From a virus, in the IMG/VR virus record IMGVR_UViG_3300033148_002122, positions 32,001 to 96,000 of that record: a stretch of DNA of 64,000 nucleotides; one strand, 5' to 3'. The notes under the pieces are model-generated. The model saw only the letters and a list, made by a program, of their open reading frames with translations. It was not told where the DNA came from and did no database searches. Below are positions 3 to 63,904 of this stretch, piece by piece (positions within the stretch are counted from its first letter, which is position 1; each line of letters opens with the position of its first letter). The position numbers were made by a program, and so were the translations under genes.

Positions 3-584
3 CATGATAGCACAGGCAGTTATTCTTCTAGCCTAATAGCTAAATACGATTCTACGGGTTCGTATTCGTTAGTACTTGAAGGAGGAGATGACTCTACTGG
101 TTCGTATAGTGTTAGTCTAAAGACTACCACAGATAGTACAGGTTCGTTATCTGTATTATTAACATATACTTATGACTCTACAGGGTCCATATCAGTTTCA
201 ATACTAAAATCTCAGGATAGTACGGCTTCAGTTTCTGTAGTAATTGGTGGAACTATAGATAGTACAGCAAGTTACTCTGCCTTAGTATCTGGTGAAGTAT
301 TCAATGTTGATAGTACTGCCAGTTACTCAGTGGCGCTGTATCTAAAGACTGATTCTACCTATAGTTATAGTGTGTTCTTGTCTCCAGATAGACCTTTGGC
401 GTATGTATACTACGATGGGTTGTCTGCGTATGTAGTAAAAGATGCCCCAGGAAATTCGCAAATTATTGAAAAAAACTACCTTGCAAGCGTGTCCGTAGCT
501 AAGTTTGATGCGTATACTATACGAGGCATCTATAGTTCGGTTGTTGAAATAATAGATATACACAAGAGAGGCTGTGGTCAATAG
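3..584 (+). CDS. 5'-truncated virion protein with 14-aa DST repeats (extends the listed ORF 330..584 to the window edge)
   Basis: Frame 3 is open from nt 3 to TAG at 582-584 and reads HDSTGSYSSSLIAKY DSTGSYSLVLEGGD DSTGSYSVSLKTTT DSTGSLSVLLTYTY..., in the same frame as 330..584. Confidence 0.85.
   Translation, partial: HDSTGSYSSSLIAKYDSTGSYSLVLEGGDDSTGSYSVSLKTTTDSTGSLSVLLTYTYDSTGSISVSILKSQDSTASVSVVIGGTIDSTASYSALVSGEVFNVDSTASYSVALYLKTDSTYSYSVFLSPDRPLAYVYYDGLSAYVVKDAPGNSQIIEKNYLASVSVAKFDAYTIRGIYSSVVEIIDIHKRGCGQ
6..392 (+). repeat. Nine tandem 14-aa protein repeats, consensus DST(G/A)SYSxxL
   Basis: Asp codons at 6, 48, 90, 132, 174, 216, 258, 309 and 351 (42-nt period, one 51-nt unit); synonymous codons differ between copies. 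Confidence 0.9.
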
Positions 585-934
585 TGGGCTATCGTACTTC
601 TAAAATAAGAGAAATTACTGATATATATCAGCATACTACTCCTCTCTTCAGATTTACTATAAATCATGATGGTACTAGTGTTGTGTTGGGTAATCTAATG
701 ACAGTGAGATTTATTGGGAAGCCACATATTGATTCAAATCATACGTTATGGGACGCCTCTTGTGCCATAGTTGACTCTACGAGGGGAATGTGTGAATGCC
801 GCCTGTCATTAACTGATACCACAGATTCTTATCACAATATGTACGGAGAGCTAAGGTTTGAAGACCACACAATACAAACAAGTGAAGTAGTTAATCAGTA
901 TAAATTTGACCTTCTAGAGTCTCTTGGTGGCTAG
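584..934 (+). CDS. BppU N-terminal-like Ig-fold virion protein
   Basis: Pattern YQHTTPLFRFTI...TVRFIGK...IVDSTRGMCECRLSLTDT...YGELRF resembles the baseplate upper protein N-domain; GTG start overlaps the upstream stop. Confidence 0.55.
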   Translation: MGYRTSKIREITDIYQHTTPLFRFTINHDGTSVVLGNLMTVRFIGKPHIDSNHTLWDASCAIVDSTRGMCECRLSLTDTTDSYHNMYGELRFEDHTIQTSEVVNQYKFDLLESLGG

Positions 935-1467
935 TGAAAAGTAGATACAAAGATCTGACTGGATGTAAGTTTGATAGATTAACAGTTCTCAAGTACGTAG
1001 GTAGAACTAAAGGTAGACATTCATTATGGCTCTGTAGATGCTCATGTGGTAATAGGGTCAAAATGCTTGATAATAATTTAAAGAGTGGGTCCACTAAATC
1101 ATGTGGGTGTCTCCGTTCAGAATTGGTTTCTGAAAGGCTTAAAGGCGAAAATAATCATAAGTGGGATCCAAATAGAACAGATGAAGAAAGAGAAATTGGT
1201 AGAAATTATCCTGATTATTACCAATTTCGTAAAAAAGTGTATGAAAAAGACAATTATACTTGTGTAGCTTGTGGCTATTCAAGCGGCGGTAATTTAGTAG
1301 CTCATCATTTAGAAAGCTACTCACGAAATCATAATTTAAGAACAAAGCCAAGCAATGGCGTTTGTCTTTGTTCGCCGTGTCACAAGTTCTTTCATGTAGA
1401 ATACGGATTTGGAAATAATACTACTGAACAGTTTCAGGAGTGGATAAGGAGGATAATGGATGAATAG
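934..1467 (+). CDS. HNH homing endonuclease
   Basis: N-terminal DLTGCKFDRLTV...WLCRCSCG...KSCGC domain plus CVACG...AHHL...NGVCLCSPCHKFFH HNH motif. Confidence 0.9.
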   Translation: MKSRYKDLTGCKFDRLTVLKYVGRTKGRHSLWLCRCSCGNRVKMLDNNLKSGSTKSCGCLRSELVSERLKGENNHKWDPNRTDEEREIGRNYPDYYQFRKKVYEKDNYTCVACGYSSGGNLVAHHLESYSRNHNLRTKPSNGVCLCSPCHKFFHVEYGFGNNTTEQFQEWIRRIMDE

Positions 1468-2521
1468 GAAAAAGGTTTTACACGTTGTAAACTGGATAGG
1501 ACTAAGGGGTTCGGAAAAGACTTGTTTAAATTTTGCAAAACATACTCCGCAGTATGATCATACGTTTATTGCCAGGACTATCACTAACGCTGAAGCCGAA
1601 AAAGAGTTTATAGGTGTTGGTGAAGTTAGAATAAGTATAAATTTTGGAACAGGTGGAATGTTTGATTATTCTGATATAACACCAGAGTTTATAAAAGAAA
1701 ATAACATTGATATAATTAATGTATACTTACCTGGGGATAACCTACCAAGCTACATAAAAGGATTGAAAGACTGTGGTGTAAAGATTGTTCTAAGTGTATT
1801 GTGTGCCAAGAAATGTCATTTTGGTCCAGAACATTTTGACTCTGTTGTGGTTCTTTCTGAATTTGCAGCATCGTTAAACCCACATTTAAATCCAGAGTGG
1901 GTATATCCAACAGTTGAAGTGCTTGAGTCACAGGCAACAAAAGATGACATACTACTTAGATACTTTGATTTCTATGAATTAGCCAAGAACCCAATACTAA
2001 TATCTAGGGTTGGGTCAATCGAGCAGGTTAAACATGTTGAAGATTTCTTAAAGTTAGCTAAAACTTTTGAATATCTTGACAACGTATATTTTTTGTACGC
2101 AGGTGTAGCTGAGACTAGTTACCTAAATAAACTAAAATCAAAGTATTACGGAATTAATATAGCATATGGTGGTGTATTAACAGAACAGGAAAAGAACGAT
2201 ATCAATGCTGTTAGTGATGTATGTTTGTATCCTACTGAGTTTGAGTCGTTTGGCTATTCACTAGCAGAACCTATGTCGCACGGTGTACCAGTTGTTACCT
2301 ACAATGAATCCGCTTCACCAGAAACAGTTGGTGACGGCGGTGTTGTTGTTGATTTTAATAATTTAGTTCAGTTGACTAAAGCTTTGGCAGAATTAATGTC
2401 TAGACCACTATTACGTAAGAAACTTGGGGATAAGGCTTTAGCAAGGTGGGAAACTAGTTTTGCGCCTGGAATTTATCAAGATAAAGTTGTTGCTATTTAC
2501 GAGGGGTTATTAAATGAGTAA
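1460..2521 (+). CDS. Glycosyltransferase, GT4 family (GT-B fold)
   Basis: KVLHVV...GSEK N-terminus, GSIEQVKHV, DVCLYPTEFESFGYSLAEPMSHGVPVV (E-x7-E motif), ETVGDGG; no TM segment. Confidence 0.9.
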   Translation: MNRKKVLHVVNWIGLRGSEKTCLNFAKHTPQYDHTFIARTITNAEAEKEFIGVGEVRISINFGTGGMFDYSDITPEFIKENNIDIINVYLPGDNLPSYIKGLKDCGVKIVLSVLCAKKCHFGPEHFDSVVVLSEFAASLNPHLNPEWVYPTVEVLESQATKDDILLRYFDFYELAKNPILISRVGSIEQVKHVEDFLKLAKTFEYLDNVYFLYAGVAETSYLNKLKSKYYGINIAYGGVLTEQEKNDINAVSDVCLYPTEFESFGYSLAEPMSHGVPVVTYNESASPETVGDGGVVVDFNNLVQLTKALAELMSRPLLRKKLGDKALARWETSFAPGIYQDKVVAIYEGLLNE

Positions 2522-7850: not shown

Positions 7851-8852
7851 ATGTCCACGTTGATACGTAATGGTAGTGGGGTATCTAAGCACAAGGATGA
7901 CGAACGACTACAGAAGTGGTTGGTCAGTCTTGCTGATAACTGGAAAGACCCCTCAATTAATGGTGAATTCCATGCACTTGCAAAGGAAATCACTCGACAG
8001 GTAATGGAAGAGTTTAGTTTTGTAGACCTGACTCCCCATATTCTTGAGTCATCTAACCTTGATCGTGATGTCCACAAGATTGTATTCAAAGAACTGGGTG
8101 GGTATACTGCAACTACAGTATCATCCGGTGGTCGTAGACAGCAGTTTAGGCTAGACAAGAGCCGTTCTGTAATCTGGATTCCAGATGAGTACGAGAATGC
8201 TACTGTGGAAGTTCTTGAAGATGATTTGCGCGAAGGTAACTATGGTACTATTGCTGATATTCGTGAGGGAATCCGTGATGCACTAGCTCATAAAAAGCTA
8301 GCCCGTGTTATGGAAGAACTGCACCGTATTTGTAACTATAGTGAAGACCAAGCTAACTGGGATGGCACTGATAGTGCCGCCGCTGGTAATAGTAACTTTA
8401 TTTACCAACCAGGAAGCACTATTCATCCTCACGCACTAAACTATGCGCTAAGAAAAGTTATCGGACGTACTGGTAGGGTTGTGTCTATTGTTGGGCACCC
8501 AGACTATGTACTTCAGATTGCTGACTTTGCTGGCTTCTTGGCTAATGAGGCAACTCCTGGTCAGAAAGAGCAGTTGCAGCAACGTGGTTGGATCGGTAAG
8601 TACCGTGGAGCCAATGTTATTGCAGTGAGTGAGTATGAGGACAAGAAGTATGGTAATCAAGTTTGGGATCCATACAACATCTACATCGTAGGTGCGGGTA
8701 TGGCCGAAATTGCTAATATTTATGGCGTAGAGGCTGTAACTGATTTTGAGGCAATGCGTTCCGTTCGTCTAATTGGTGGCGATCAGAAGTACGTTGTACT
8801 ATCTCAGGATCCTCAGTTGAAGCGTGGTTTCCGTATTCAAATGGATGCGTAA
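7851..8852 (+). CDS. Major capsid protein (HK97 fold)
   Basis: Synteny, 333 aa, AGGAGG RBS, GWIGKYRGANVIAV matches the typical G.l.G..v P-domain strand; followed by a GC hairpin. Confidence 0.8.
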   Translation: MSTLIRNGSGVSKHKDDERLQKWLVSLADNWKDPSINGEFHALAKEITRQVMEEFSFVDLTPHILESSNLDRDVHKIVFKELGGYTATTVSSGGRRQQFRLDKSRSVIWIPDEYENATVEVLEDDLREGNYGTIADIREGIRDALAHKKLARVMEELHRICNYSEDQANWDGTDSAAAGNSNFIYQPGSTIHPHALNYALRKVIGRTGRVVSIVGHPDYVLQIADFAGFLANEATPGQKEQLQQRGWIGKYRGANVIAVSEYEDKKYGNQVWDPYNIYIVGAGMAEIANIYGVEAVTDFEAMRSVRLIGGDQKYVVLSQDPQLKRGFRIQMDA

Positions 8853-20703: not shown

Positions 20704-23700
20704 ATGTCTGATACAAAGTATAGTCTAACTGATACCACTAATCCTTATGGTTTTAAGGGTGTTCTAGGAACGGGGGTTGGTAGGCACAGTGTATCTAGGT
20801 ATGATAAATTCTTGCCTAGTGATAGGAATTTTTTAGAAGAAGTTATTACTGAAATTCGTAGGGAATTATCTACTCAAATTAGTGACACTACTTCTCTTCA
20901 TCAACAAATAACCCAACAAGTATATGTTCCTAATACTAAGACATCTGCTGTTAACGTTAACTACTTGCCTGTAGATTTTAGAGCAGCGGGTGAGTATAAA
21001 CCTACTAATAGCCTTGATGGTCCTCTTGAGTTAAAATATGAAGGGTATATTAATAGAGTAATTGTACACCGTAATACACCTGGAATTGATGGCACAACAG
21101 CGATTAACGTTAAGATAGATGGAACAAGTATTTTGGATGGACTCATAACTATAGGATCTGATGAAACAGCAGCAACAGTAGTTACTGATTTTACATCAAC
21201 ATACTACGAAATTGATAGCAATCTAACGGTTGATATTATAGATGTTGAGGCAAATGCATCCGACCTAATGGTTACTGTTGAGCTAGCTTTTCCATTCCAG
21301 TCTAATGTATTTCTAGCTAATTTTTCACTAACAGGCAGAGGAAGTATAACTGAGAATCTAGATGGTTTCTTCATAGTACCATTCGAATCAGAGTGGAAAT
21401 ATTGGCAAGGAGTTACTGATTCTACTAGCTTAGGTCAGTACAGCATTACTGCCCATAGACTGGATACAACTACTAGTGCCGGTCCAACAACTTTTCCTGC
21501 TCCTGGTGAAGCTAGTGCTAGTTTGAATGAAAACAGGATACAACCTGGGGAACTATTTAGTGTGTCTGTTAACGAGGTTCCTTCTTCCGGTGAAGATATG
21601 AGGGCAACACTTACGTTTAATAGAAGAATACCAGAGTACTATGCTATAATGGATTTTCAGGCGATGGGTAATTACTATGTAACAGAGAATGCTGATATAG
21701 CTCGATATATTCCAGAAAATATAACAATTAAGGATGTATACCTAACTAGATCAACCGGAGGAACAGATAATACATCTGTTTTCACACTTAATGATGATGG
21801 TGTTGAGATAGCTAGGGTATACATTGACAGCAGTACGGCTATTTATGATAGTACAGGTTGTCATGTTTCACCAGAAGTTGAGGTGGCTGCTGGGTCTTAC
21901 CTAACGCTTGATATTATTGGTGTTGAGGATGGGGTGCCATCAGACGCAAGATGTATGGTTGTATATGATGTATCAATACCAACCACACCAATAGGTTTAG
22001 CCGATTCAACAGAAACGGCAGAACTTAGAAATAGCTTTATTTCACTGGACAGCAGTGTTGCAGACATATCGACTCATCTTGGTCTAGTTGATACTACAGC
22101 TTCAAACACACTGGCTAGTCTTAATAGTATTGATAGTACAGTAAGTGATATACTTAGTAGACTAACTTTACTAGATACTACAGCGTCCCAACTAACTGAT
22201 GAATACCTGGAGTTGGACGCTACTGTAGACTATATATTATATAATCAGTTGCTAAACAACAACTTATTGATTCAGTTTGGTAATGACCTAGATAGTTTTG
22301 ATAGTACTTTGGCTGAGATGTCTGTAGGTCTTGGTATTTTTGATAGTACTATATCAGAGATGTCAGATAAAATTATTGAAATAGATAGTACAGCTTCTGA
22401 GATATCTTCTAGAATAAATATAATAGATAGTACTACTGCTGAAATGTCTATAAAACTTATAGCACTAGATAGCACTGTATCTGAGTTATCTGCTGTAGTT
22501 GGTGACACACCTGAATATGATTATGTTGACCTAGACACATCGTATGGAAAACCTGTCCATCAACCTGGAAGGTTATTCTGGGATGACGATAATAAAACTG
22601 TTGCGATGTACACTGATAGTACTGAGGTTACACTACAGATAGGACAAGAGGATTGGACTCGGGTTAAAAACGAAACAGGGAATACTATTGTTAATGGCAG
22701 GGCAGTAAATGTTGTTGGAGTAAATGGTAACGGCATACCTCTAGTTGATTTCGCACACGCAGGTGATAGTACATACAATCATTGTCATGGCCTAATGACT
22801 CACAATCTTGAAACTGGTAACATAGGTTATATGGTATCTCGCGGTATTATCCATGATATTGATACTTCTTGGCTTTCTGCTGGTGATCCTCTTTATCTTT
22901 GTGATTCTACGGCTGGTCTGTACGGAACTACTATACCAACTGCTGCTGCGTCTGCTATACAGGAGATTGGTGTTGTTTTAGAATCAGGTGTTTCTGGATC
23001 TGCTCTAGTACATCCACACGCACCATCTAGAAATTCAGAACGAGCATTTGAAAGATCTTGGGCTATAACAAGTCTCAGTGGTGCGTCTGGAGACTACTAC
23101 TTTGGTGGATTTTACAAACACGGTGGTACTCACGATGATTTTAGTGGAGTAGTTAACTTTGGAAGTGCTAACGTATCGTATGCTGCACATTTCTTTGTTG
23201 TTCTTGGTGCCTCTACTGTTGATGAGTTAACAATACATGTCACTGGAACATCTATAAACGACAACGGTGACAGAGCTACTAGTGACACTGAAGATATTGT
23301 AATTCCAACACTAACTTCTGTTAATGCATATTTCGAGACTAGTAAGAAGTGGTTAGGTCAAATTTCTGTAACTGTTACAGGTGGAACAGCGAAAGATTGT
23401 AATTATGGGTTCTCCAAATATTGGGATAACAATAATAACGCATTCCAACTAATAGGTCTTGAAGTAACGGGGTTAGCTGGAGCGTCAGATACTGGTATAG
23501 AAATAAGATTGATTCATCACACTAGCTCTGGATGGACGTATAACGCAGGAAGTTCCGCTGTACCCGCAGTCTTGGCATCAATGTCTACTGACCACTCAAC
23601 AGAGAGTAGGGTAGCTTCGGGTGAGGAATTTGCATGGAAACGTTCTAACTTAGATACGTCTGTAGCTGGTGGAGATTCTGAAGGAACAATCTTTTTTATT

Positions 23701-23775
23701 ACTACCACGGTTAACGATGCCGTTGAAGTTGGAACAGCAATGATTAGAATTATTACGGATATTACTAGCCAATAA
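20704..23775 (+). CDS. Tail fibre/tip protein: three tandem beta domains, DST coiled-coil stalk, C-terminal domains
   Basis: Three ~110-aa repeats starting FRAAG/FSLTG/FQAMG, a 14-aa periodic coiled coil, then a GRLFWD...LQIGQE...GDPLYL fibre module; 12 DST + 5 DTT by eye. Confidence 0.7.
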   Translation: MSDTKYSLTDTTNPYGFKGVLGTGVGRHSVSRYDKFLPSDRNFLEEVITEIRRELSTQISDTTSLHQQITQQVYVPNTKTSAVNVNYLPVDFRAAGEYKPTNSLDGPLELKYEGYINRVIVHRNTPGIDGTTAINVKIDGTSILDGLITIGSDETAATVVTDFTSTYYEIDSNLTVDIIDVEANASDLMVTVELAFPFQSNVFLANFSLTGRGSITENLDGFFIVPFESEWKYWQGVTDSTSLGQYSITAHRLDTTTSAGPTTFPAPGEASASLNENRIQPGELFSVSVNEVPSSGEDMRATLTFNRRIPEYYAIMDFQAMGNYYVTENADIARYIPENITIKDVYLTRSTGGTDNTSVFTLNDDGVEIARVYIDSSTAIYDSTGCHVSPEVEVAAGSYLTLDIIGVEDGVPSDARCMVVYDVSIPTTPIGLADSTETAELRNSFISLDSSVADISTHLGLVDTTASNTLASLNSIDSTVSDILSRLTLLDTTASQLTDEYLELDATVDYILYNQLLNNNLLIQFGNDLDSFDSTLAEMSVGLGIFDSTISEMSDKIIEIDSTASEISSRINIIDSTTAEMSIKLIALDSTVSELSAVVGDTPEYDYVDLDTSYGKPVHQPGRLFWDDDNKTVAMYTDSTEVTLQIGQEDWTRVKNETGNTIVNGRAVNVVGVNGNGIPLVDFAHAGDSTYNHCHGLMTHNLETGNIGYMVSRGIIHDIDTSWLSAGDPLYLCDSTAGLYGTTIPTAAASAIQEIGVVLESGVSGSALVHPHAPSRNSERAFERSWAITSLSGASGDYYFGGFYKHGGTHDDFSGVVNFGSANVSYAAHFFVVLGASTVDELTIHVTGTSINDNGDRATSDTEDIVIPTLTSVNAYFETSKKWLGQISVTVTGGTAKDCNYGFSKYWDNNNNAFQLIGLEVTGLAGASDTGIEIRLIHHTSSGWTYNAGSSAVPAVLASMSTDHSTESRVASGEEFAWKRSNLDTSVAGGDSEGTIFFITTTVNDAVEVGTAMIRIITDITSQ
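22048..22509 (+). repeat. 14-aa (two-heptad) coiled-coil repeat carrying D-x-(S/T)
   Basis: Asp codons at 22048, 22090, 22132, 22174, 22216, 22300, 22342, 22384, 22426 and 22468 (exact 42-nt register, 22258 slot is Asn). Confidence 0.9.
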
Positions 23776-38072: not shown

Positions 38073-41000
38073 TGGCTAAAGACGAAATTATTAGAAGTCA
38101 AAGAAAACAAGTTAACAAGCAAATAAAAGAACATCTAGGATCAGGCAATCTAGTTGACTTCTCTGACAGGAAAAATACTTCTGCAATAATTTATAGTGAA
38201 AATATACCTGATGTTCCAGTTCAGCATGTAGACAAGCTGTTATGGAGAGGGTATTGGTTTATCTATGAGCAACCTGGAGTCTACGTACCAAGCCCAAGCA
38301 GCATAGAAACATACGTTGAAGTGTCAGTGAATGACCCTACTAACTCGCAGTCTAGTATGATTTCGCAAGAGCCAGATGGTGGTAAATTCTTCTATGAATT
38401 TATTTATTCTGGTAGCGATTACAATGAATACAGGTATGTTAACCTAGGTGTGTACACAACATTTATACCCGCTGTAACTGGTGCTATTCCAATTACTTTT
38501 GCTGCTTCTGTTGGAGACAGAGTTGCGTTATATCAAGATGGTATACTCCTAACTAACGGCTACTCACAGAATGGTGGTCGTGTTACAGCTAGTATTAATT
38601 TAAGAAAAAATACAAGAACTACGCTGTCCCTACAGTTTTATTCACCAAGTTATAAGGATGAGGACTCTCCTCTGTCTAGATTTGCTAGAATATATACTAA
38701 TATTGCGAACTACGTACTAGCCTACGGTGATGCCAAACCTGATACGCCAACAAACTTGACTGCAATTGCTAGCGACGAGGGCAATAGAGTTACATGGAAT
38801 ATATCATCATCTACCGCACAGTATGTTGCAGGCACAGAGGTGTATCATCAACGTGAGGATGACAACAGCTTTCATCTATCGGGGATAGTCGAAGGCTTAG
38901 AAACTGAGTTTATTCATAATAAGGATATATATGATCATTTTCCCAACGGAGATCTTGAGTATTCACCAATCCAGATTCATATAGGTGGAGGAAGTTGGGA
39001 ATACGAAAGTATATTTATTGAAGGATACGGAAACGTACACTCACTACATCTTTCTCACACTGATAATGGTTGGGAAAACTATGCCTACTCTGCTGACCAA
39101 AATGAATTCTTTAGGTGGAGATTTGGTTCTGATGATGATATTCCTCTTCAAGCCGACTGTGGTATTTATCTATATCACGTAGATAACAGAGGTGATAGCA
39201 TAGGAGAGCTAAGAAGTCATGCATCTGACTATGCTCTTGAATTTCCTACCGATACATTTTTAGACGATAGATCACTAGAGGGAATACTAGATGATGTACT
39301 AGATTGTCCAAATTCTAGTGGTTTTTGGTGTTTGGCCTTAAACCCAAATGAAGTTAGTGCCGGAAGTGAATCAGATAGACATTTTGCACTCGGTATTGAT
39401 GACATAATTATAAATGGTAACTATGACTACAGACTTACTTTCCAGTCAAGACTTGCCTTAACGGGTAAGTATGATCCTGTGAATGGTTTTGAAGATTATA
39501 GTGAGGATGATGCATACGCAGAAGCTAGCCCAACAGTCTATTATAAGGTTAAGGCAGTTGTTGATAACTCATATATAGTAGAGGACGATTCCTGGGTTGC
39601 TCTAGGAACTGTTTTACCATCACTTAACGGGTGGGGATTTAACTCTATGGTTGCAACGGCAGAGGACATGACTGCCGCTATTGTTGAGCTAATACCAGAG
39701 GGTAGTGTGTTTGTTGTTTCAGCCATACAGTTTAAGTTCTCGTTATTAGACGATGAACTAGACTATGATTCTGTTAATGACAACATGTACTATAAGATGT
39801 GGCTACTCGGAGGTGTTGACTTATTCCCTGTTCAGGGAGCAACCCTTGAGTCAGGGGTGGAATATACTTACAAAGTTAGACACTTTACTAACGGCCATAT
39901 ACTAAGTGAATACTCAGACACTGTGTCTGTTGTTGCTGTTATGCCACAGGCACCTACATCTGTTGACGTTAACATGATTGACGTAGAGGCAGATACTAAA
40001 TGGAATAATATTACACCGCTTGAGGTTGTAGTTAGTTCCTTGTCTGAGTTACAGACAATACCAAGACTTGAAATGAAGCATACTGGTTCTTCAAATATTT
40101 ATGGAGCGTCCTATATTGAACCCGCTGGTCCTGATGGCTGGGTTTCTGTTCCTGTAGGTGCTATTACTGAGGGGATGTCAGATCCAGACCACCTACACAC
40201 TAAGTGGACAATTCAGGCACAGCACATGAAGGACATGGGGTTCTGGGCAGAGTGGTTATACTATACCGGACTTGACTTTCCATCAGAAATTACAGACTAT
40301 TATAGTCACCAGTTCACCCAGCACGATAGGTATGAGTTTAGAGTAGTTGCTTCCCCCGTTGGGGAAGAAGTAATAGACATAGAACATCTATTCTATGCTG
40401 TGTATGACACAGAACCACCTTCTTGCTATGTTGAGGTAACAGATCTGTATAGTAGACTGAGTAGTAGCATAGATGGCTATGTACTACACGGTGGTAAGTC
40501 TCTGTTAGAGAGTCCCAGTAGTAATAGTTCAGAGATTACAGTAAGATTTATGCTTAAAATTCCAGAAACAACCACTATAACTGGTCTGAGTGCTGAGTAT
40601 GACTGGAGAGCAGATGGATCTAAATTTAGATACCTAATAGTTAAGAACATAGGAGTAGATTTACACAAACCTATTTCACTCCTTGAGTACGAGTGGGATC
40701 CACTTACTACGTATATTTACGGAGGTTTTGGATCTAGTACTGTGCAAGAATACTATGAAGATAACTTTGTTGACTACTACGGTAATACGGTATCAAGCTA
40801 TGATCATGATTATGTTTATGGTCTAAAACTTAATGAAGATTATGATGAGTGGCACGAATACAATCGTGACACTGTGCATGAGGTTTCATTTACTCTTGAA
40901 GCCGATGACGTACTAATAGGTGTTGATATCTATATTGAAGTTGAAAATTCAATAGGAGAAAGATTCGAATATGGTTTATACGCTATTGATCTATCTAGTA

Positions 41001-44804: not shown

Positions 44805-45446
44805 ATGAAAATTTCTGTGTTACTGCCTATGCGTGATTCAGATAGTGATTCTGTGGATGGGCTAAGGACTTTGATAGAGAATAGAACAGGCGATAATGAA
44901 CTTGAGATACTGTTTGGTGTAGATAGAGATGATGACTCATGGAAACAGGTTACGGCTATGCTGGATGAGGAGTTTCCTGAAATTGAGTACGTTGTATGCG
45001 TTACCAAGCAATTTGGATACACTAGCCTGTATGAGTACATGAACCGATTGGCAGCGTTGTCAACAGGTGATTGGCTTATGATGTGGAATAATGATGTCTA
45101 CATGATAGGAAAAACATGGGACTTAGGTATAAATAAAGACTTATTTAAGTTGTATTACCTACAGTCTGATAATCAGTGTGAATTTCCTGTGTTTCCGAGA
45201 AAATGGTTTGAACTTACAGGAAGAATCTCTTTGTCTAGGCATTGTGATTCGTGGATGTTATACATAGGAAGAGAAATTCTTACAAAGGAGGGTGCCGTGC
45301 TATCTGAGTTACCAAACTCTAGGGTTAATCACCTGAAAAAAGTAAAACAAGTGTATGATAATAAACATTTTAAGGACTTAGCCAGTGAGAGAAATATTGA
45401 TAAGAACAGGATTGTGGACTACTTAAAAAGTGAGGGACTAATATGA
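44805..45446 (+). CDS. Glycosyltransferase, GT2-like (GT-A fold)
   Basis: MKISVLLPMR, EILFGVDRDD, NRLAALSTGDWLMMWNND (DxD-equivalent). Confidence 0.85.
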   Translation: MKISVLLPMRDSDSDSVDGLRTLIENRTGDNELEILFGVDRDDDSWKQVTAMLDEEFPEIEYVVCVTKQFGYTSLYEYMNRLAALSTGDWLMMWNNDVYMIGKTWDLGINKDLFKLYYLQSDNQCEFPVFPRKWFELTGRISLSRHCDSWMLYIGREILTKEGAVLSELPNSRVNHLKKVKQVYDNKHFKDLASERNIDKNRIVDYLKSEGLI

Positions 45447-46693
45447 ATATAGGTTTTGTAGGGCTTGGTAAACTAGGACTACCGTGTGCGCTAGCTATTG
45501 AGGGCAAGGGTCATACTATTTACGGTACTGATACTAACCAGGATGTCATTAAGAATATAGTATTTAAGCAAATTCCGTATAAAGAAGAGGGTGCCCAAAA
45601 AGCTTTGACTAATGCAGAACATCTTTATCTTTCTGAATTACCAGCTATTGTTGAGAAGTCAGATATAATTTTTGTTCCTATTCAGACTCCACATCAACCT
45701 GAGTACGAAGGTTGTGTTCGTATTCCAGATGACAGAATAGACTTCGACTATACTTGGTTAAAGGCAGGCGTTAAAGAACTATCTGATGAGATAGGCAAGC
45801 AGGGTGTAGACAAGATTGTTGTAATTATTTCCACAGTACTTCCGGGTACTATTGAGAGAGAGATTAAACCATTACTTTCTGATCATGTAAAGCTATGTTA
45901 TAATCCATTCTTTATTGCAATGGGAACGTGTATGCAGGATTTTCTTCATCCTGAGTTCATACTTATGGGTGTAGACGATGAGTATGCTGCACAAAAAACA
46001 ACTGAATTCTATGCCACGATTACTGATGCTCCTGTTCAGCAAATGAGTATTGCTAGTGCAGAGTTGGCGAAAGTTGCATACAATACATACATTGGTCAAA
46101 AGATTGTCTTTATTAATGCCATGATGGAAATATGTCACAAGACTGGTGCCAATGTTGATGACATTACCAGGGCAATCAGATCGGCCAATAAGCGAATCAT
46201 TAGCCCAGCATATCTAGAGGGTGGAATGGGGGACGGTGGCGGCTGTCACCCAAGAGACAATATTGCACTTTCTTGGCTGGCTCGTAAGCTCAATCTTAGC
46301 TATGATTTATTTGAGTCTGTTATGGAATGCCGTGAGAAACAGACAGAGTGGATAGCTAGTATGGCCTTTGATGAGGCATCAGCTAGAGAATTACCGATAG
46401 TTATTCTTGGTAAATCGTTTAAGCCTGAAAGTAATATTGAGACAGGAAGTCCAGCACATCTTCTTCGCAATATAATTACTGAGATAGACCCAAACCAGCC
46501 TAAGATGTGGGATCCACATATTGATGGTCTTGAGTTATCAAGAGAAATAATGTTTACACCCGCAGTGTTCGTTATTGCCACGAAGCATAAATACTTTGGC
46601 AGCCTAGGCTTTCCTACAGGGTCTGTTGTCATTGATCCATGGCGTTACATACAGGATCAGGATGGGGTAGATGTAATTAGATTAGGAGAATAG
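45443..46693 (+). CDS. ugd: UDP-glucose/GDP-mannose dehydrogenase family
   Basis: GFVGLGKLGLP Rossmann motif, STVLPGT, SAELAKVAYN, catalytic GGGCHPRD, LGKSFKP. Confidence 0.92.
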   Translation: MNIGFVGLGKLGLPCALAIEGKGHTIYGTDTNQDVIKNIVFKQIPYKEEGAQKALTNAEHLYLSELPAIVEKSDIIFVPIQTPHQPEYEGCVRIPDDRIDFDYTWLKAGVKELSDEIGKQGVDKIVVIISTVLPGTIEREIKPLLSDHVKLCYNPFFIAMGTCMQDFLHPEFILMGVDDEYAAQKTTEFYATITDAPVQQMSIASAELAKVAYNTYIGQKIVFINAMMEICHKTGANVDDITRAIRSANKRIISPAYLEGGMGDGGGCHPRDNIALSWLARKLNLSYDLFESVMECREKQTEWIASMAFDEASARELPIVILGKSFKPESNIETGSPAHLLRNIITEIDPNQPKMWDPHIDGLELSREIMFTPAVFVIATKHKYFGSLGFPTGSVVIDPWRYIQDQDGVDVIRLGE

Positions 46694-46694
46694 A

Positions 46695-48098
46695 ATGGGA
46701 TTAAAGGAAAAGATGCTAGAGAGTAAGGTAGTTCTTATTTCTTTGCCAGTTCCTTTTGCGGATGAGCCAGCAATGAACCCACCACTTGGGCTTTGTTATA
46801 TAATGAGCTATCTAAAGGAAAAAGGAATTAAAAATGTTGAAATAGTAGACTATGCGTTATCAAATGACTATGATTTCTTTGACTCAAAAGAATACCTAAA
46901 ACTTTTACCGTCAGATGCTGACTACTATGGTGTTTATTGTACTACCTCACAGTTTCACTGGCTTCATGAAGTAAGTGATTATCTTACAAAGAAAACACAA
47001 GGGGTTATAGTTGCTGGTGGTCCTCACCCAACTACTATGGCGCAGCAGACAATGCTTGACACAGAAGTTACGTTTGTTGTAAAGGGTGATGGTGAGGAAC
47101 CAATGTATAGGCTTATAAGAGGAGATGACTATGAGGATATTCCTGGTTTATGCTACTGGAGTTCCAGGGGTGTTACTGAGAATGCTCATAACGTTCATAG
47201 TAAATTAGATTCATTGCCTTTCCCAGAGAGATACAAACTAGAAGAGTATAAACGTAGGATAGAGGGTGAAAAGGCAGCACACATTGTTACGCTTAGAGGG
47301 TGTCCGTATAACTGTGCTTTCTGCGATAGGCTTTCTGTTGGGCGAAAGATGAGATACAGAAGTATTGATAACGTACTTCAGGAAATGGATTATATTATAG
47401 ATAACTACGGTATTAAAGCCTTTGTTATTTATGACGATATCTTTACTCTTAAGAAGGACAGAACACTTGAATTCTGCGAAGCGTTTAGGCAACGTGATAT
47501 AAAATGGAGATGTTGGGCTAGGGCTGACCTAGTTGATCGTGACATACTTCAGTCAATGAAAGACTCAGGAATGGTAAGTATTACATTTGGTATAGAGTCT
47601 GGAGATGACCATGTACTTAAGAGTATGCGTAAGGGTACAACGGTAGAAAAAAATAGGAATGCGTTACTCCTGTGCAAAGAGCTTGGCATTCCTGTTAGGT
47701 GTAGTCTTATGTATGGCAACCCTGGTGAATCCAGGGAATCAATCGAGAATACTATTAAGATGATAGAAGAAACTCAGCCTGACGAATGGAACTTGGCTGT
47801 GCTACAGCCTATCCCTGGATCAGATATCTGGTATCATCCAGAACAGTTTGGTATCAAGTTTGATAAGCAGAGAGTAATTGACCAGCAGTTTCAGATGACT
47901 AATCGTTTTGCAGATAGTGGGATTGGTGATATATGGATTGCACTAGAGGGAACGTCTGACGAAGAGTTCTCATGCAATCTAAAGTATTTTGTTGAAGAGT
48001 TGGAAAGGGTGTGTCCAAGGACTAAGATTCAGGACACCATTCAAACAATAGATGTTTGTAAGGTAAAGGAGAAAGATGAACACTCAATACAGGATTGA
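46695..48098 (+). CDS. B12-binding radical SAM enzyme (class B methyltransferase-like)
   Basis: PPLGLCYI, VAGGPHPT, GDGEE cobalamin domain; RGCPYNCAFC; DDIFT; FGIESG. Confidence 0.92.
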   Translation: MGLKEKMLESKVVLISLPVPFADEPAMNPPLGLCYIMSYLKEKGIKNVEIVDYALSNDYDFFDSKEYLKLLPSDADYYGVYCTTSQFHWLHEVSDYLTKKTQGVIVAGGPHPTTMAQQTMLDTEVTFVVKGDGEEPMYRLIRGDDYEDIPGLCYWSSRGVTENAHNVHSKLDSLPFPERYKLEEYKRRIEGEKAAHIVTLRGCPYNCAFCDRLSVGRKMRYRSIDNVLQEMDYIIDNYGIKAFVIYDDIFTLKKDRTLEFCEAFRQRDIKWRCWARADLVDRDILQSMKDSGMVSITFGIESGDDHVLKSMRKGTTVEKNRNALLLCKELGIPVRCSLMYGNPGESRESIENTIKMIEETQPDEWNLAVLQPIPGSDIWYHPEQFGIKFDKQRVIDQQFQMTNRFADSGIGDIWIALEGTSDEEFSCNLKYFVEELERVCPRTKIQDTIQTIDVCKVKEKDEHSIQD

Positions 48099-48873
48099 CA
48101 AGATAACTGACTGGTTACTAGATTATTATCACCAGACAGGAAGAGACTTTGTGGTTGGTGTTTCTGGTGGTGTGGATTCTGCCGTTGTGAGTACACTGTG
48201 TGCAATGACTAGCGTAAGAACATGGGCAGTTAGTATGTCATTTAATGGAAGCATACCAAAGCTGGCTGAAACACATATTACTAGTCTTCAGAAAGAATAT
48301 GATAATGTTATTCCAGATTATATTTATTTAGACGATATATATAAAAAGTTCAATGAGAAATTTGGATCCCTAAGTGGTATATCAGGAGTAAATTTAAAGT
48401 CAAGGTTAATGATGTGTGCTTTATATACATTATCGTCTGAGGTTGGTGGCTTAGTTGTTGGAACTGGTAACAAAGTTGAAGACCTAGGTATTGGTTTCTT
48501 TACCAAGTACGGTGATGGCGGTGTGGATCTGTCTCCTATTGGAGATTTAATGAAAAGCAGTGTGTACGATATGGCTGCATACCTAAATATTTCAGACAAT
48601 ATAATTAAAGCCCCCCCAACAGACGGACTATGGGGGGACAGCAGAACAGATGAGGATCAGATTGGCACTAGTTATTTCCAACTTGAGTGGGCAATGCGAG
48701 AACCAGTGTCTACCGAATCCAACGAACGTGGAGAACCCAGATATATTAGAAACGGTGCTGACTGTACAGTTCACTATACTAATGAACAGAAAAAAGCCCT
48801 GCGTATTTACGCAGAGCTAAGACAAAAAAATATGCATAAGATGAGTAGTATTCCGGTATGTAAATTTACTTAA
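48076..48873 (+). CDS. nadE: NH3-dependent NAD+ synthetase family
   Basis: VVGVSGGVDSAV PP-loop, GTGNKVED, FFTKYGDGGVD, PPTDGL, TDEDQIG. Confidence 0.9.
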   Translation: MNTQYRIDKITDWLLDYYHQTGRDFVVGVSGGVDSAVVSTLCAMTSVRTWAVSMSFNGSIPKLAETHITSLQKEYDNVIPDYIYLDDIYKKFNEKFGSLSGISGVNLKSRLMMCALYTLSSEVGGLVVGTGNKVEDLGIGFFTKYGDGGVDLSPIGDLMKSSVYDMAAYLNISDNIIKAPPTDGLWGDSRTDEDQIGTSYFQLEWAMREPVSTESNERGEPRYIRNGADCTVHYTNEQKKALRIYAELRQKNMHKMSSIPVCKFT

Positions 48874-49765
48874 GATATTCCCAAAATTCCTGAATTGAAT
48901 CTTTATAATTGTCGGGGTTGCCTAGTTCGAAATCGAATGAGGCTGCTCCGACATTTTCATTTATAGCCAAGTTGCATCCACACAGAGCGGCTTCCATAAC
49001 GATCCTACCCATTGGTTCAATCCAGTTTGGTAGGTGGACTAGGCACTTTGTGTTGTTGTAAATACCAGGAAGCTCACTGTAGTCCACACTCTCTTTCCAC
49101 TTCATACCGTAGTCTTCAACACCAATATCCATAGGGTTTTTACCGATGAAAAGCACATTAGAAGGCTCTGCATTCACATCTTCTAGGAACTTCAGTGTGT
49201 TGAGTATACCCTTGGCAGGTAGCAGAGGAGCTACATACAGGTAGTCAATTTTTCTGTCAGCAAACTCTTTGTTATTAAACAACTTAGTGTTTATTGTAGG
49301 ACGAATAACGTGTGATTTGTTTGCCATATCTACATAGGGTAGTAGTGAAAGCACTGTCTTGGCATGGAGAGGAGACAGGAAGAACAGTCGTTCTGCCTTC
49401 TGATACAACTCCGCAGATTCTGGGTGACAGTGCTGTTCGCACTCGGCGTTACACGGCAGATAATCCTTTTTGCACACATCTACGTATGCGTTATCAAACT
49501 TGAAATACTTCTTATGCCTAAGCTTTTCACTCAGCCATTCCTTACTAAATCCTGGCTGTCCAGGTAAGTTAAAAACATCACAAAAAATATTAAAATCTGC
49601 ATCATTATTATAATCGTATGTATTATCAGGTGTTATAATTTTAAGATTTTCCACGGGTCCGAAGGGTCCGGTTCCCCACGTAAGAAGTTCTCTCATTATG
49701 GCCTCACCACCACCTGATGCAGTAGGTGAGTACGGGTCAATCCTAGCCAAGTAATTAATCTTCAT
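48866..49765 (-). CDS. Glycosyltransferase, GT4-like, with Cys-rich insert
   Basis: SGGGE N-terminal motif, KGI, HLPNWIEPMGRIVMEAALCGC (E-x7-E); CKKDYLPCNAECEQHC insert. Confidence 0.85.
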   Translation of the reverse strand: MKINYLARIDPYSPTASGGGEAIMRELLTWGTGPFGPVENLKIITPDNTYDYNNDADFNIFCDVFNLPGQPGFSKEWLSEKLRHKKYFKFDNAYVDVCKKDYLPCNAECEQHCHPESAELYQKAERLFFLSPLHAKTVLSLLPYVDMANKSHVIRPTINTKLFNNKEFADRKIDYLYVAPLLPAKGILNTLKFLEDVNAEPSNVLFIGKNPMDIGVEDYGMKWKESVDYSELPGIYNNTKCLVHLPNWIEPMGRIVMEAALCGCNLAINENVGAASFDFELGNPDNYKDSIQEFWEYLK

Positions 49766-56803: not shown

Positions 56804-57056
56804 ATTTTATTATTCCGTAGGTTGAATACCTAGGAAATTCTTTAAATGGTTGTGACTCCCATACTTGGTTCATAGTACAAAATATACGCTTAAGGAATAT
56901 TAGGGCATCTTCTACGCTATGAAATATATCTGTGTTGTACGTTCCGTTATTGCCTCTAAATTCAGCTACCCATTTATTATCTTTTTCATGTGGTTTTTCC
57001 CATATAATGTAGGTATCTCCATCAGGAAATACTTTTATCCATGCCCCAAGTTTCAC
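56763..57056 (-). CDS. Hypothetical protein
   Basis: 97 aa, GTGA overlap with the heptose kinase stop. Confidence 0.55.
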   Translation of the reverse strand: MKLGAWIKVFPDGDTYIIWEKPHEKDNKWVAEFRGNNGTYNTDIFHSVEDALIFLKRIFCTMNQVWESQPFKEFPRYSTYGIIKCEERFAHAELLAK

Positions 57057-58006
57057 AGCTTCTCCATTACTTCATCTAGTTCTACTGGATTAACTCCAAA
57101 TTTAGTTACTGAGATCTCAGCTATTTTTTGTACAAGACCAAGTTTACTCTCTCTGTCTTCCTGTGGTTCATACGGAGTAAGTAACAGGGCAGCAGCGGCA
57201 GTCACTGTGTCACCAGCACCACACGCATCCTGTACGTGAACCTTATCGGCTGGTATGGTTGCTAGATAGTTGAAGTGCTTGTCAATATACCACATACCTT
57301 TATCACCTAGTGTAACAAGTGTATTACACGTAGCTTCTTTATACATCTGTATGTATGCTTCCCACTCATAAGTATTAGGTGTGTACACTACTTCAAGATT
57401 GTCACTTCCTGCCTCTAGCCTATACCTCTGTTTTGAATCAATTATAAAAAACATCTTTTTTCTTGTGCTATGTTTTGATAGCAATCTATACAACGAGTTA
57501 ATAAAATCTTGATTTGTCCCAGACTTACCATAGTCTGATAGGATTACCGAATCTGGTCTATTCTGATCCAGGTAGTAGTCTATCTTATACATAATATTCA
57601 TTACTTCAGCCTGAGTCATCTCGCCATACTTGTGTTCTTCATCTAGTCGGCAAACGTGGTGTCCGTTGCACACTATTCTTGTTTTTACTGGGGGTCTAAC
57701 GTCATGCACATTTATAGCTACAAAAGGAAAATCAAATATAGACGTTGTATGCCCAGTCAACGAACACATGACAGGCTTACCACCAAGTGCATGGATTGTC
57801 TTTGCTACGTTGGTGGCACCGCCATCGGCTTCCCACTTTTTTATAGTACCTCCAATTACAGGCACTGGTGCCTCTGGGGATAACTTTGACTCCGTGCCTT
57901 CAATGTATTTGTCAATGATGTGATCACCAATTACAAGTATATTCTTATTACTTGAATCACTGAGATACTTACTGGTTTTCTCGTAGCCTTCCTTACTAAA
58001 ACTCAA
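57053..58006 (-). CDS. RfaE/HldE-type heptose-7-phosphate kinase domain (PfkB family)
   Basis: ILVIGDHIIDKY...SPEAPVPV, GGATNVA, KTRI..RLDEE, ILSDYGK, TPN, VTLGDKGM, DACGAGDTVTA. Confidence 0.88.
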   Translation of the reverse strand: MSFSKEGYEKTSKYLSDSSNKNILVIGDHIIDKYIEGTESKLSPEAPVPVIGGTIKKWEADGGATNVAKTIHALGGKPVMCSLTGHTTSIFDFPFVAINVHDVRPPVKTRIVCNGHHVCRLDEEHKYGEMTQAEVMNIMYKIDYYLDQNRPDSVILSDYGKSGTNQDFINSLYRLLSKHSTRKKMFFIIDSKQRYRLEAGSDNLEVVYTPNTYEWEAYIQMYKEATCNTLVTLGDKGMWYIDKHFNYLATIPADKVHVQDACGAGDTVTAAAALLLTPYEPQEDRESKLGLVQKIAEISVTKFGVNPVELDEVMEKL

Positions 58007-59249: not shown

Positions 59250-59364
59250 TAAAAAACTCCTTAATCCGTTCCCAAACACAATAACCTAGTGTTCCCATAC
59301 CAGCTACAACACTAGCATCTGCACACAAGTCTGAATTTAAAATATAGTATAGTATGTCATGCAT
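59224..59364 (-). CDS. Possible 46-aa small membrane-associated protein (not in the ORF track)
   Basis: ATG 2 nt after the upstream stop; MHDILYYILNSDLCADASVVAGMGTLGYCVWERIKEFFNDNFRAKS fills the gap. Confidence 0.45.
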   Translation of the reverse strand: MHDILYYILNSDLCADASVVAGMGTLGYCVWERIKEFFNDNFRAKS

Positions 59365-63817: not shown

Positions 63818-63831
63818 TTATACCTCCAAGG

Positions 63832-63904
63832 TTGACGGGGCAGGAGTTGAACCTGCAACATTCAGGACCAAAACCTGACGCTCTGCCAATTGAACTACCC
63901 ATCA
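63832..63904 (-). tRNA. tRNA-Gln (anticodon TTG), CCA not encoded
   Basis: TGATGGG acceptor / CCCGTCA, D arm GTTC AATTGGCA GAGC, anticodon arm TCAGG TTTTGGT CCTGA, T arm GCAGG TTCAACT CCTGC; U1-A72 typical of Gln; followed by CCT. Confidence 0.92.

What the first reader, a model, noticed from the sequence alone, without database searches (positions are those of the whole stretch)
22048..22509. Coiled-coil stalk places the DST serine at the fully exposed heptad f position every 14 residues
Seen: exact 42-nt register DSS, DTT, DST, DTT, DAT, (NNL), then DST five times. In IDSTVSDILSRLTLLDTTA the hydrophobic residues fall at offsets 0, 4, 7, 11 and 14, giving d=I, e=D, f=S/T, g=T, a=V. Known: f points away from the core and is normally unconstrained, and D/S/T are poor helix formers. 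Inference: conservation here is best explained by an external reader such as a transferase acting on the middle residue, which is the residue modified in the Bacteroidota sequon. The same 14-aa spacing as the unrelated beta repeat at 6..392 suggests a shared glycan or enzyme footprint.
Basis: partly seen in the sequence, partly recalled or inferred. Interest (0 to 1): 0.75.

Follow-up and report, generated by a model that had tools for sequence, protein, structure and literature searches.

The report
Tail-fibre coiled coil studded with Asp-Ser-Thr
A phage tail-fibre stalk is a three-stranded helical rope that shows the tripeptide Asp-Ser-Thr on its outside every second turn of the repeat, the same tripeptide that this phage lineage has added to its other outer virion proteins, probably as an attachment signal for sugars made by the phage's own enzymes.

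Summary
Residues 449-602 of the 1023-aa protein after the tape measure (20704..23775) form 11 units in exact 14-aa/42-nt register: DSS, DTT, DST, DTT, DAT, NNL, then DST five times. Hydrophobicity has period 3.50. An AF2 monomer is helical through every DST. A trimer model is parallel and in register: D (e) and T (g) touch neighbouring chains, and the middle S/T (f) is never listed as touching.

- e-f-g is the only place where three consecutive polar residues avoid the a/d core, so "S at f" is forced by geometry and is not independent evidence.
- In 33 units from four homologues, D (30/33) and T (29/33) are better kept than S (22; A 6, T 3).
- The genome-wide motif is D-[S>T]-T, not the Bacteroidota sequon, and no Bacteroidota host is indicated.
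- The link to the 14-aa beta repeat is unsupported.
- No DST-free or glycosyltransferase (GT)-free outgroup stalk was found.

The coil does show that the motif is independent of structural context, which favours a linear sequon read by a phage GT. This scan has noted sequon-like motif excesses in other phages, and in one of them Asp-Ser proved to be structural.

The parts
20704..23775 (+). Tail-fibre-like gene (1023 aa) directly after the 2089-aa tape-measure gene. Layout: N-terminal domain, coiled-coil stalk, two C-terminal beta domains.
   Evidence: ORF list. Two full-length homologues, P0004 and P0005, at 48% and 44% identity. No Pfam or PHROG family.
20704..21999 (+). N-terminal domain (aa 1-432), found only in the four lineage homologues.
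22000..22509 (+). Coiled-coil stalk, aa 433-602. About 24 uninterrupted heptads, roughly 250 A long if the rise is about 1.48 A per residue (rise recalled).
   Evidence: Period 3.50 and hydrophobic a/d. AF2 helices at aa 435-524 and 529-600. Trimer model ipSAE 0.57 against best control 0.00, with in-register contacts.
22048..22509 (+). Eleven 14-aa units with D-S/T-T at e-f-g: DSS, DTT, DST, DTT, DAT, NNL, DST x5.
22246..22257 (+). Polar core layer Q515 (a) and N518 (d) in the degenerate middle of the stalk. P0004 has Q and N at the same heptad positions; P0153 does not.
   Evidence: Register; sequences. The link between N at d and trimers is recalled, not tested.
22276..22287 (+). FGND (aa 525-528), the only helix break in the monomer model. 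The trimer model carries interface contacts across it.
22510..23772 (+). Two C-terminal beta domains of a very widespread tail-fibre family. The three DSTs here (aa 638, 688, 734) lie in loops and are specific to this lineage.
   Evidence: 7196 library hits at E<=1e-3 for the whole protein, most listed hits matching aa ~600-1018. AF2 mean pLDDT 91.3 with DSSP loops at the DST sites. DST present at these columns in 2/38, 3/39 and 4/42 homologues.
1460..2521 (+). GT4-type glycosyltransferase gene inside the head module, just upstream of the portal gene. Candidate reader of the motif.
   Evidence: Pfam Glycos_transf_1, 8.7e-17. PHROG glycosyltransferase. The orthologue at the same place in relative G001 is 44% identical.
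3..584 (+). C-terminal end of the 1426-aa DST(G/A)SYS beta-repeat fibre (66 DST in the whole protein), the other 14-aa DST array.
45443..48873 (+). Sugar-tailoring genes: UDP-glucose/GDP-mannose dehydrogenase, B12-binding radical SAM, NAD-synthase-like.
   Evidence: Pfam.
48866..49765 (-). Second Glycos_transf_1 glycosyltransferase.
   Evidence: Pfam, 1.8e-6.
57053..59279 (-). PfkB-family sugar kinase and GT9 (heptosyltransferase-like) glycosyltransferase.
   Evidence: Pfam. PDB sequence hits to LPS heptosyltransferases.

Best explanation
Residues 433-602 form the stalk of a tail fibre, a parallel, in-register, three-stranded heptad coiled coil about 250 A long. Every second heptad begins, right after the d-position Ile/Leu, with Asp(e)-Ser/Thr(f)-Thr(g). 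This is the same D-[S>T]-T tripeptide that this phage lineage has placed on loops and beta repeats of its other outer virion proteins.

I read it as a linear recognition motif (sequon) for a phage-encoded cytoplasmic glycosyltransferase. The best candidate is the GT4 gene in the head module, with the other GTs and sugar-nucleotide enzymes building the glycan. The enzyme would act on the chain before or during trimerisation. A polar triplet fits a heptad only at e-f-g, so the motif is tolerated there, and the Ser points outward. That would give up to about 9 rings of three modified sites spaced about 21 A apart.

Shown: the register, the helix, the conservation pattern, the enrichment of the motif and its restriction to this lineage, and the presence of GT genes. 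Inferred: that anything is attached, which residue carries it, which enzyme reads it, and when.
For: - Register and helix: period 3.50 with hydrophobic a/d. The AF2 helix runs through all DSTs.
- Trimer model: ipSAE 0.57/0.57/0.55 against best control 0.00; partner pLDDT at least 79; runs agree in at least 94% of contacts. The mark was reached by 21 of 30 solved pairs and 0 of 23 single chains, and the calibration used two copies, not three. Contacts such as 483-483 and 480-480 show a parallel, in-register arrangement. In the copy that touches both neighbours, D and T of all 11 lattice sites are listed as interface residues. The middle residue is listed in 0 of 11 sites in any copy.
- Conservation above the core: 3.88/2.86/3.61 bits at e/f/g against 1.76-2.29 at a/d.
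- No consistent partner explains D or T. The g' position that pairs with D(e) is basic in 8/33 units and acidic in 8/33. The e' position that pairs with T(g) is mixed: S9, L7, A7.
- Independence of structural context: outside the stalk and the giant fibre, DST occurs 36 times against 2.6 expected, and DTT 11 against 2.3. DAT, DSS, DSA, DSV, DSL and DSI are at expectation.
- The motif is encoded by many codons.
- The tape measure, portal and the probable major capsid protein (7851..8852) have 0 DST.
- Lineage-specific placement on loops: 2/38, 3/39 and 4/42 homologues carry it at the three C-terminal-domain columns, which are loops by DSSP.
- The three C-terminal-domain DSTs and DST at aa 382 and 434 are identical in all three full-length homologues, where 30.5% of all residues are invariant.
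- The syntenic relative G001 shows the same DST-rich protein set and the same GT4 next to its portal gene.
- GT and sugar genes are present.
Against: - There is no chemical evidence that anything is attached.
- In the coil, D and T are kept better than the presumed acceptor. S is replaced by A in 6/33 units, and DAT is conserved at one lattice site in three homologues. So D(e) and T(g), which contact neighbouring chains in the model, may have a structural role of their own.
- e-f-g placement is forced by geometry, so exposure of S adds no independent weight.
- Whether a GT can read the motif in a helix-forming segment is unknown.
- No outgroup stalk exists for comparison.
- G001 is only about 30% complete, and its fragment has no GT9 match.
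- The trimer model may reflect the predictor's memory of coiled coils, and unlisted residues are 'uncertain', not shown to be free.
Confidence: 0.5

Rival explanations
1. Structural coiled-coil signature. Asp at e and Thr at g are kept because they flank the core of this trimer (inter-chain hydrogen bonds, helix capping or solubility). Ser at f is a tolerated small polar filler, and nothing is attached.
For: D (30/33) and T (29/33) are better conserved than the f residue, and DAT and DIT units occur. D and T are interface residues at all 11 sites in the trimer model. In P0005, D-x-T also heads the two 11-residue units. An earlier follow-up in this scan (e1-5378836) found Asp-Ser to be a structural stalk-repeat signature in another phage. 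Viral trimeric stalks are generally rich in S, T and D: there are weak sequence matches to a coronavirus S2 construct (E 4.3e-4) and to reovirus sigma-1 (E 0.7).
Against: The partner positions of D and T are not conserved. The same exact tripeptide is enriched 14-fold in loops and beta repeats of unrelated proteins, where coiled-coil reasons cannot apply, while DAT is not enriched there. The f position still carries 2.86 bits, against 1.21 at the other f. No other long stalk among the 153 stored proteins was available to show such a signature.
Confidence: 0.2
2. The triplet is a linear recognition motif, but not for glycosylation. It could be a site for another modification (phosphorylation, acylation), a docking site for a decoration or assembly protein, or a cation-binding site.
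For: The evidence for a context-independent, lineage-specific motif on outer proteins does not itself specify a sugar. Only gene content points to glycans.
Against: The genome carries at least four Pfam-supported GT genes plus a nucleotide-sugar dehydrogenase and a sugar kinase, one GT lies inside the structural module, and that GT is conserved in the relative. No protein kinase or acyltransferase was seen among the 30 window ORFs put through Pfam in three calls. This is not the whole gene set; one search also scanned one G001 ORF.
Confidence: 0.15
3. Repeat history only. A 14-aa unit that happened to contain DST was amplified in tandem, and the periodic DST is inherited rather than selected.
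For: Tandem Repeats Finder sees a 42-nt array (2.8 copies, 68% matches) in the last units. Within the window's stalk, Ser is always encoded by AGY.
Against: Units are only 21-69% identical at DNA level, yet they keep D and T. Orthologues at 44-48% identity keep the lattice, with other codons. The triplet is more conserved than the core.
Confidence: 0.08

Closest known systems
Parallel trimeric alpha-helical coiled-coil stalks of viral fibres (reovirus sigma-1 tail, coronavirus S2 heptad repeats, phage fibritin-type stalks)
   Same: Canonical heptads with an S/T/D-rich surface. Weak sequence matches to 8x5o (spike S2 construct, E 4.3e-4) and 6gaj (sigma-1, E 0.7). A trimer model is supported.
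   Different: None of these is known to me (recall) to carry one fixed tripeptide at e-f-g of every second heptad that is better conserved than the core. The matches are compositional and do not show homology.
General protein O-glycosylation of Bacteroidota, motif D-S/T-(A/I/L/V/M/T)
   Same: A three-residue motif starting with Asp, with Ser preferred over Thr in the middle, and Thr allowed in third place (PMC8550257, abstract; PMC12871550, passages).
   Different: That system modifies non-cytoplasmic proteins in the periplasm with a lipid-linked glycan. Its third residue is most often L, I or V. Here only Thr is enriched in third place, the protein has no visible signal peptide, and the 80 kept genome relatives of the phage RecA include no record titled as Bacteroidota.
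Virion glycosylation by phage-encoded glycosyltransferases in mycobacteriophages (Che8, Rita)
   Same: Phage-encoded GTs and glycans on virion proteins forming a shield (passage in PMC11256854 citing Freeman et al. 2023; the primary paper is not held).
   Different: In that passage the glycans are reported on major capsid proteins. I saw no description of a short sequon. Here the candidate sites are a defined tripeptide on fibres, a probable head-decoration protein and large tail proteins, and glycosylation is unproven.
Alpha/beta coiled coils with beta-layers (Hartmann et al. 2016, eLife, PMC4786415)
   Same: Trimeric fibre stalks with a conserved polar motif at a fixed place in the repeat.
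   Different: [quoted passage not shown] Here the period is exactly 2 x 7 and the helix is continuous.
Cytoplasmic GT4-type protein O-glycosyltransferases that act on Asp-Ser repeats (staphylococcal SdgA/SdgB) and GT9-like autotransporter heptosyltransferases (TibC/AAH). Both assignments are recalled, not tested.
   Same: Soluble GT-B enzymes that modify Ser in repetitive surface proteins before export or assembly. The window's GT4 gives weak PDB sequence hits to 'group 1 family' GTs, including 7ec1/7vfk. Its GT9 hits LPS heptosyltransferases.
   Different: The hits are weak (E 6e-4 and 8e-6) and cover only the nucleotide-sugar half of the proteins. No specific relation to protein-modifying members was shown.

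Membership tests
Canonical parallel trimeric heptad coiled coil | 3.5-residue hydrophobic periodicity with an uninterrupted a/d core | tested here: met
   Spectrum peak at 3.50. Positions a and d have mean KD 2.79 and 2.98 over 24 heptads, with no stutter between aa 435 and 602.
Canonical parallel trimeric heptad coiled coil | Continuous alpha-helix | tested here: met
   AF2 monomer: helices at aa 435-524 and 529-600, mean pLDDT 77.1.
Canonical parallel trimeric heptad coiled coil | Three chains, parallel and in register | tested here: met
   Model only: ipSAE 0.57 against best control 0.00, same-residue contacts, and the interface consists of a, d, e and g positions. The oligomer number was imposed by me; dimer and tetramer were not tried.
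Alpha/beta coiled coil (beta-layer) | Insertion of 2 or 6 residues into the heptad, with short beta strands | tested here: not met
   The unit is 14 = 2 x 7 residues, and no strand appears in either model. Definition taken from the PMC4786415 abstract.
Substrate of the Bacteroidota general O-glycosylation system | Motif D-S/T-(A/I/L/V/M/T), with hydrophobic third residues also used | tested here: not met
   Only DST (36 against 2.6 expected) and DTT (11 against 2.3) are enriched. DSA 0/1.8, DSV 1/2.2, DSL 2/1.9, DSI 1/1.9.
Substrate of the Bacteroidota general O-glycosylation system | Non-cytoplasmic protein (signal peptide or membrane anchor) | tested here: not met
   By inspection only: the first 35 residues have no hydrophobic stretch. 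No signal-peptide predictor was available.
Substrate of the Bacteroidota general O-glycosylation system | Host belongs to Bacteroidota | tested here: inconclusive
   The host is unknown. The 80 kept genome relatives of the phage RecA (57-63% identity) are mostly Alphaproteobacteria, and none is titled as Bacteroidota. The portal protein has no match in the phage collection.
Phage-encoded virion glycosylation | Phage encodes glycosyltransferases | tested here: met
   Glycos_transf_1 at 1460..2521 and at 48866..49765, and Glyco_transf_9 at 57996..59279.
Phage-encoded virion glycosylation | Glycan covalently attached to virion proteins | not testable with these tools
   Needs mass spectrometry or glycan staining of virions or recombinant protein.
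Widespread tail-fibre C-terminal domain family (no Pfam name) | Sequence homology over aa ~600-1018 | tested here: met
   Most of the 150 listed hits match this region. Annotated tail-fibre proteins of Roseobacter phage CRP-6, Nitrincola phage 1M3-16 and others match aa 582-771. Foldseek found no convincing PDB fold (TM at most 0.21).

The most novel reading that the evidence does not exclude
D-S/T-T is a true linear O-glycosylation sequon of a phage-encoded, cytoplasmic, sequon-directed virion glycosylation system. It is read in any structural context, including a helix-forming heptad repeat. The stalk would then be a glycan 'bottle-brush' with rings of three sugars about every 21 A. The rule that the sequon fits a coiled coil only at e-f-g would make the motif a portable tag for glycosylating designed coiled coils.
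Probability: 0.4. Interest if true: 0.8.

Novelty: new variant of a known kind. Interest (0 to 1): 0.55.

Why it matters
Outside Bacteroidota, bacterial O-glycosylation is said to lack a sequence motif (PMC12871550). Virion glycosylation in tailed phages is so far documented for mycobacteriophage capsids (PMC11256854 passage).

A short, portable sequon read by a soluble phage enzyme would be new biology and a useful tool for glycoengineering. The coiled-coil stalk is the clearest natural control in this genome. It shows the tripeptide kept in a helix, where turn-forming or loop-forming explanations fail. It also offers a small (about 180 aa), soluble, trimeric test substrate with about nine sites per chain.

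Tried and rejected
- **Beta-layer or alpha/beta coiled coil.** Rejected: the period is 2 x 7 and the helix is continuous.
- **DNA-level motif** (for example a restriction or methylation site in GATAGTACT). Rejected: genome-wide, DST uses both TCN and AGY serine codons, GAT and GAC, and all ACN codons, and it is frame-specific (23 and 30 hits in two + frames against 2-7 in the other frames).
- **Recent tandem duplication.** Rejected.
- **Minus-strand ORF 22272..22508** (78 aa). Taken to be a shadow of the repeat; not studied further.
- **Outgroup stalks.**
  - The word-index search of aa 425-625 found only the query itself.
  - The whole-protein word-index search added only P0153.
  - The full HMMER search gave two full-length homologues.
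  - IMG/VR scans gave one relative contig.
  - The JGI metagenome scan gave none.
  - A crude heptad scan of all 153 stored proteins found long stalks only in the four lineage members.
  - The 'fibritin' of Synechococcus phage S-CRES1 shares only the domain after the stalk and has no long coil.
- **Host.** Portal tblastn against the phage collection gave no match. RecA relatives gave no clear host.
- **Fold of the C-terminal domains.** Foldseek against the PDB gave nothing convincing.
- **Literature.** Three searches listed no title or abstract on a D-S-T motif or a sequon on phage virions. I read only the listings, so this is no proof that none is in print. Supplements (for example Fig. S1 of PMC12871550, on third-residue preferences) were not seen.
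Full report
**What is there.** The window is bases 32001-96000 of a 116,752-bp single-contig virus record with 39% G+C. The finding lies in ORF 20704..23775 (1023 aa), which directly follows the 2089-aa tape-measure gene. Neither Pfam nor PHROGs names this protein.

Translation in rows of 14 from aa 449 gives DSS, DTT, DST, DTT, DAT, NNL and then DST five times. One more DST lies 15 residues upstream, at aa 434.

**Is it a coiled coil, and where does the triplet sit?**
- The hydrophobicity spectrum of aa 435-602 peaks at 3.50 residues.
- With D449 set to e, positions a and d are hydrophobic (mean KD 2.79 and 2.98) through 24 heptads without a stutter, including the degenerate NNL unit.
- An AF2 monomer of aa 425-625 (single sequence, mean pLDDT 77.1) is helical from 435 to 524 and from 529 to 600. 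It breaks only at FGND 525-528 and never at a DST.
- A three-copy ESMFold2 model of aa 430-612 scored ipSAE 0.57/0.57/0.55 against 0.00 for the best of three controls. Partner pLDDT was at least 79, and the runs agreed in at least 94% of contacts. The mark was reached by 21 of 30 solved pairs and 0 of 23 single chains in a calibration that used two copies, not three.
- The model's lowest-error contacts are same-residue pairs (483-483, 480-480, 476-476), so the trimer is parallel and in register.
- In the copy that touches both neighbours, the interface consists of the d,e and g,a pairs of every heptad. D and T of all 11 lattice sites are listed. The middle residue is listed at 0 of 11 sites in any copy.
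- The tool warns that unlisted residues are uncertain and that coiled coils may score from memory. Even so, the pattern is systematic and agrees with the sequence analysis.

**What the register does and does not tell.** In a heptad, e-f-g is the only run of three consecutive positions that contains neither a nor d. Any polar tripeptide placed in a coiled coil must sit there, with its middle residue at f. Exposure of the Ser is therefore a consequence of the fold. It is not independent evidence that the Ser is the modified residue.

**Conservation.** Only three other proteins share the stalk: P0004 (1131 aa), P0005 (1005 aa) and P0153 (703 aa). P0005 is identical to the fibre of IMG/VR contig G001.

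I pooled 33 units from the four proteins.
- Position 1 is D in 30.
- Position 2 is S in 22, A in 6 and T in 3.
- Position 3 is T in 29.
- Information content at e/f/g is 3.88/2.86/3.61 bits. That is above the core (1.76-2.29 bits) and far above e/f/g of the alternate heptad (1.48/1.21/0.95 bits).
- The positions that would pair with D(e) and T(g) across chains are not conserved. The g' position is basic in 8 and acidic in 8 of 33 units, and e' is S9/L7/A7.

Ordinary coiled-coil pairing therefore does not explain the triplet. On the other hand, D and T are better kept than S. DAT occupies the fifth lattice site in P0001, P0004 and P0153. P0005 has DAT three times and DIT once, and it has two 11-residue spacings. 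This leaves room for a structural role of D and T in the coil.

The units are old. They are 21-69% identical at DNA level, and the G001 orthologue uses different codons for its DSTs.

**The wider motif.** DST occurs 124 times in the genome, concentrated in about eight proteins. Outside the stalk and the 1426-aa repeat fibre, the counts in the DST-rich proteins are as follows.

| Tripeptide | Observed | Expected |
|---|---|---|
| DST | 36 | 2.6 |
| DTT | 11 | 2.3 |
| DAT | 3 | 1.6 |
| DSS | 5 | 2.9 |
| DSA | 0 | 1.8 |
| DSV | 1 | 2.2 |
| DSL | 2 | 1.9 |
| DSI | 1 | 1.9 |

All three positions therefore matter, and the motif is D-[S>T]-T. It is encoded by many codon combinations and is frame-specific. 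The tape measure, the portal and the probable major capsid protein (7851..8852) have none.

In the well-modelled C-terminal domains (pLDDT 91.3), the three DSTs lie in loops. Homologues from other phage lineages carry D[ST]T at those columns in only 2 of 38, 3 of 39 and 4 of 42 cases, and the lineage members P0004 and P0005 are among those few each time. These three DSTs, together with DST at aa 382 and 434, are identical in all three full-length homologues, where 30.5% of all residues are invariant.

The syntenic relative G001 (59 kb, about 30% complete) has the same DST-rich set of proteins.

The tripeptide is thus a lineage-specific addition to outer virion proteins in loops, beta repeats and a helix. 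The stalk matters because a turn-forming explanation for DST cannot hold in a continuous helix.

**Enzymes.**
- The window encodes a Glycos_transf_1 (GT4-type) enzyme at 1460..2521, inside the head module just before the portal gene. G001 keeps an orthologue at the same place, 44% identical.
- It also encodes a second Glycos_transf_1, a GT9 and a PfkB kinase.
- Further genes encode a UDP-glucose/GDP-mannose dehydrogenase, a B12 radical SAM enzyme and a NAD-synthase-like protein.
- The protein has no signal-peptide-like N-terminus by eye, so any modification would take place in the cytoplasm.

**Comparison with the Bacteroidota sequon.** That system uses D-S/T-(A/I/L/V/M/T) (PMC8550257 abstract). 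It modifies non-cytoplasmic proteins after the glycan is flipped to the periplasm, and its third residue is most often L, I or V (PMC12871550 passages). Here only Thr is enriched at the third position. Nothing points to a Bacteroidota host: the 80 kept genome relatives of the phage RecA are mostly Alphaproteobacteria, and the portal has no match among isolated phages. The resemblance is an analogy, not membership.

**The 14-aa coincidence.** The beta-repeat fibre has 57 of 65 spacings equal to 14, and its G001 counterpart also repeats mostly at 14. In the coil, however, 14 is simply two heptads. The first interval is 15 in P0001, P0004 and P0153 (12 in P0005), and P0005 also uses 11. Fourteen residues span about 21 A in a helix but a quite different distance in a beta repeat. 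I see no support for a shared footprint.

**Verdict.** I put about 0.5 on the sequon (glycosylation) reading of the stalk. I put about 0.2 on a purely structural D-x-T signature, about 0.15 on another kind of reader and under 0.1 on repeat history.

Other notes of this scan describe the system-level DST pattern on this same genome and sequon-like excesses in other phages. In one of those, Asp-Ser proved to be structural. I tested that alternative here and it does not fit.

Noticed in passing
window 1460..2521 (+); G001 38171..39211 (L013:18171-19211, -): A GT4-type glycosyltransferase gene sits inside the head-morphogenesis module, directly upstream of the portal gene. The only relative with DNA keeps it at the same place, 44% identical. 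This is an unusual location for a GT and makes it the prime candidate for a virion-protein transferase.
   Followed up: partly
window 22246..22257 (aa 515-518): Gln at a and Asn at d form a polar core layer in the degenerate middle of the stalk. P0004 has Q and N at the same heptad positions; P0153 does not. It lies next to the conserved DAT unit and the FGND helix break, so it may be an ion-binding layer or a hinge.
   Followed up: no
P0004 aa ~590-700; P0153 aa ~600-703: After the shared stalk, the homologues differ. P0004 has an extra domain of about 110 aa before the common C-terminal domains. P0153 ends in a different, short C-terminal domain. The stalk therefore acts as a joint for swapping distal domains.
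   Followed up: no
window 22510..23772 (aa 603-1023): The C-terminal beta domains belong to a very large tail-fibre family. The whole protein has 7196 library hits at E<=1e-3, and most listed hits match aa 600-1018. The family has no Pfam model and no convincing PDB fold match by Foldseek.
   Followed up: partly
window 62529..63524 (-): A full-length RecA (Pfam 4.6e-129), 57-63% identical to RecA of mostly alphaproteobacterial genomes. It lies beside ThyX (61856..62527) and a primase.
   Followed up: partly
window 57053..59279 (-): A PfkB-family kinase gene overlaps the start of a GT9 (heptosyltransferase-like) gene. The pairing is reminiscent of ADP-heptose supply plus a heptosyltransferase. 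Whether the GT9 acts on protein, as the autotransporter heptosyltransferases do (recalled), is untested.
   Followed up: no
window 22272..22508 (-): A 78-aa open frame runs on the opposite strand across the repeat array. It is probably a shadow of the periodic codon pattern rather than a gene.
   Followed up: no
window 934..1467 (+): A small HNH-endonuclease-like ORF lies between the repeat-fibre region and the GT4 gene.
   Followed up: no
window 63830..63904 (-): A single tRNA-Gln (anticodon TTG).
   Followed up: no
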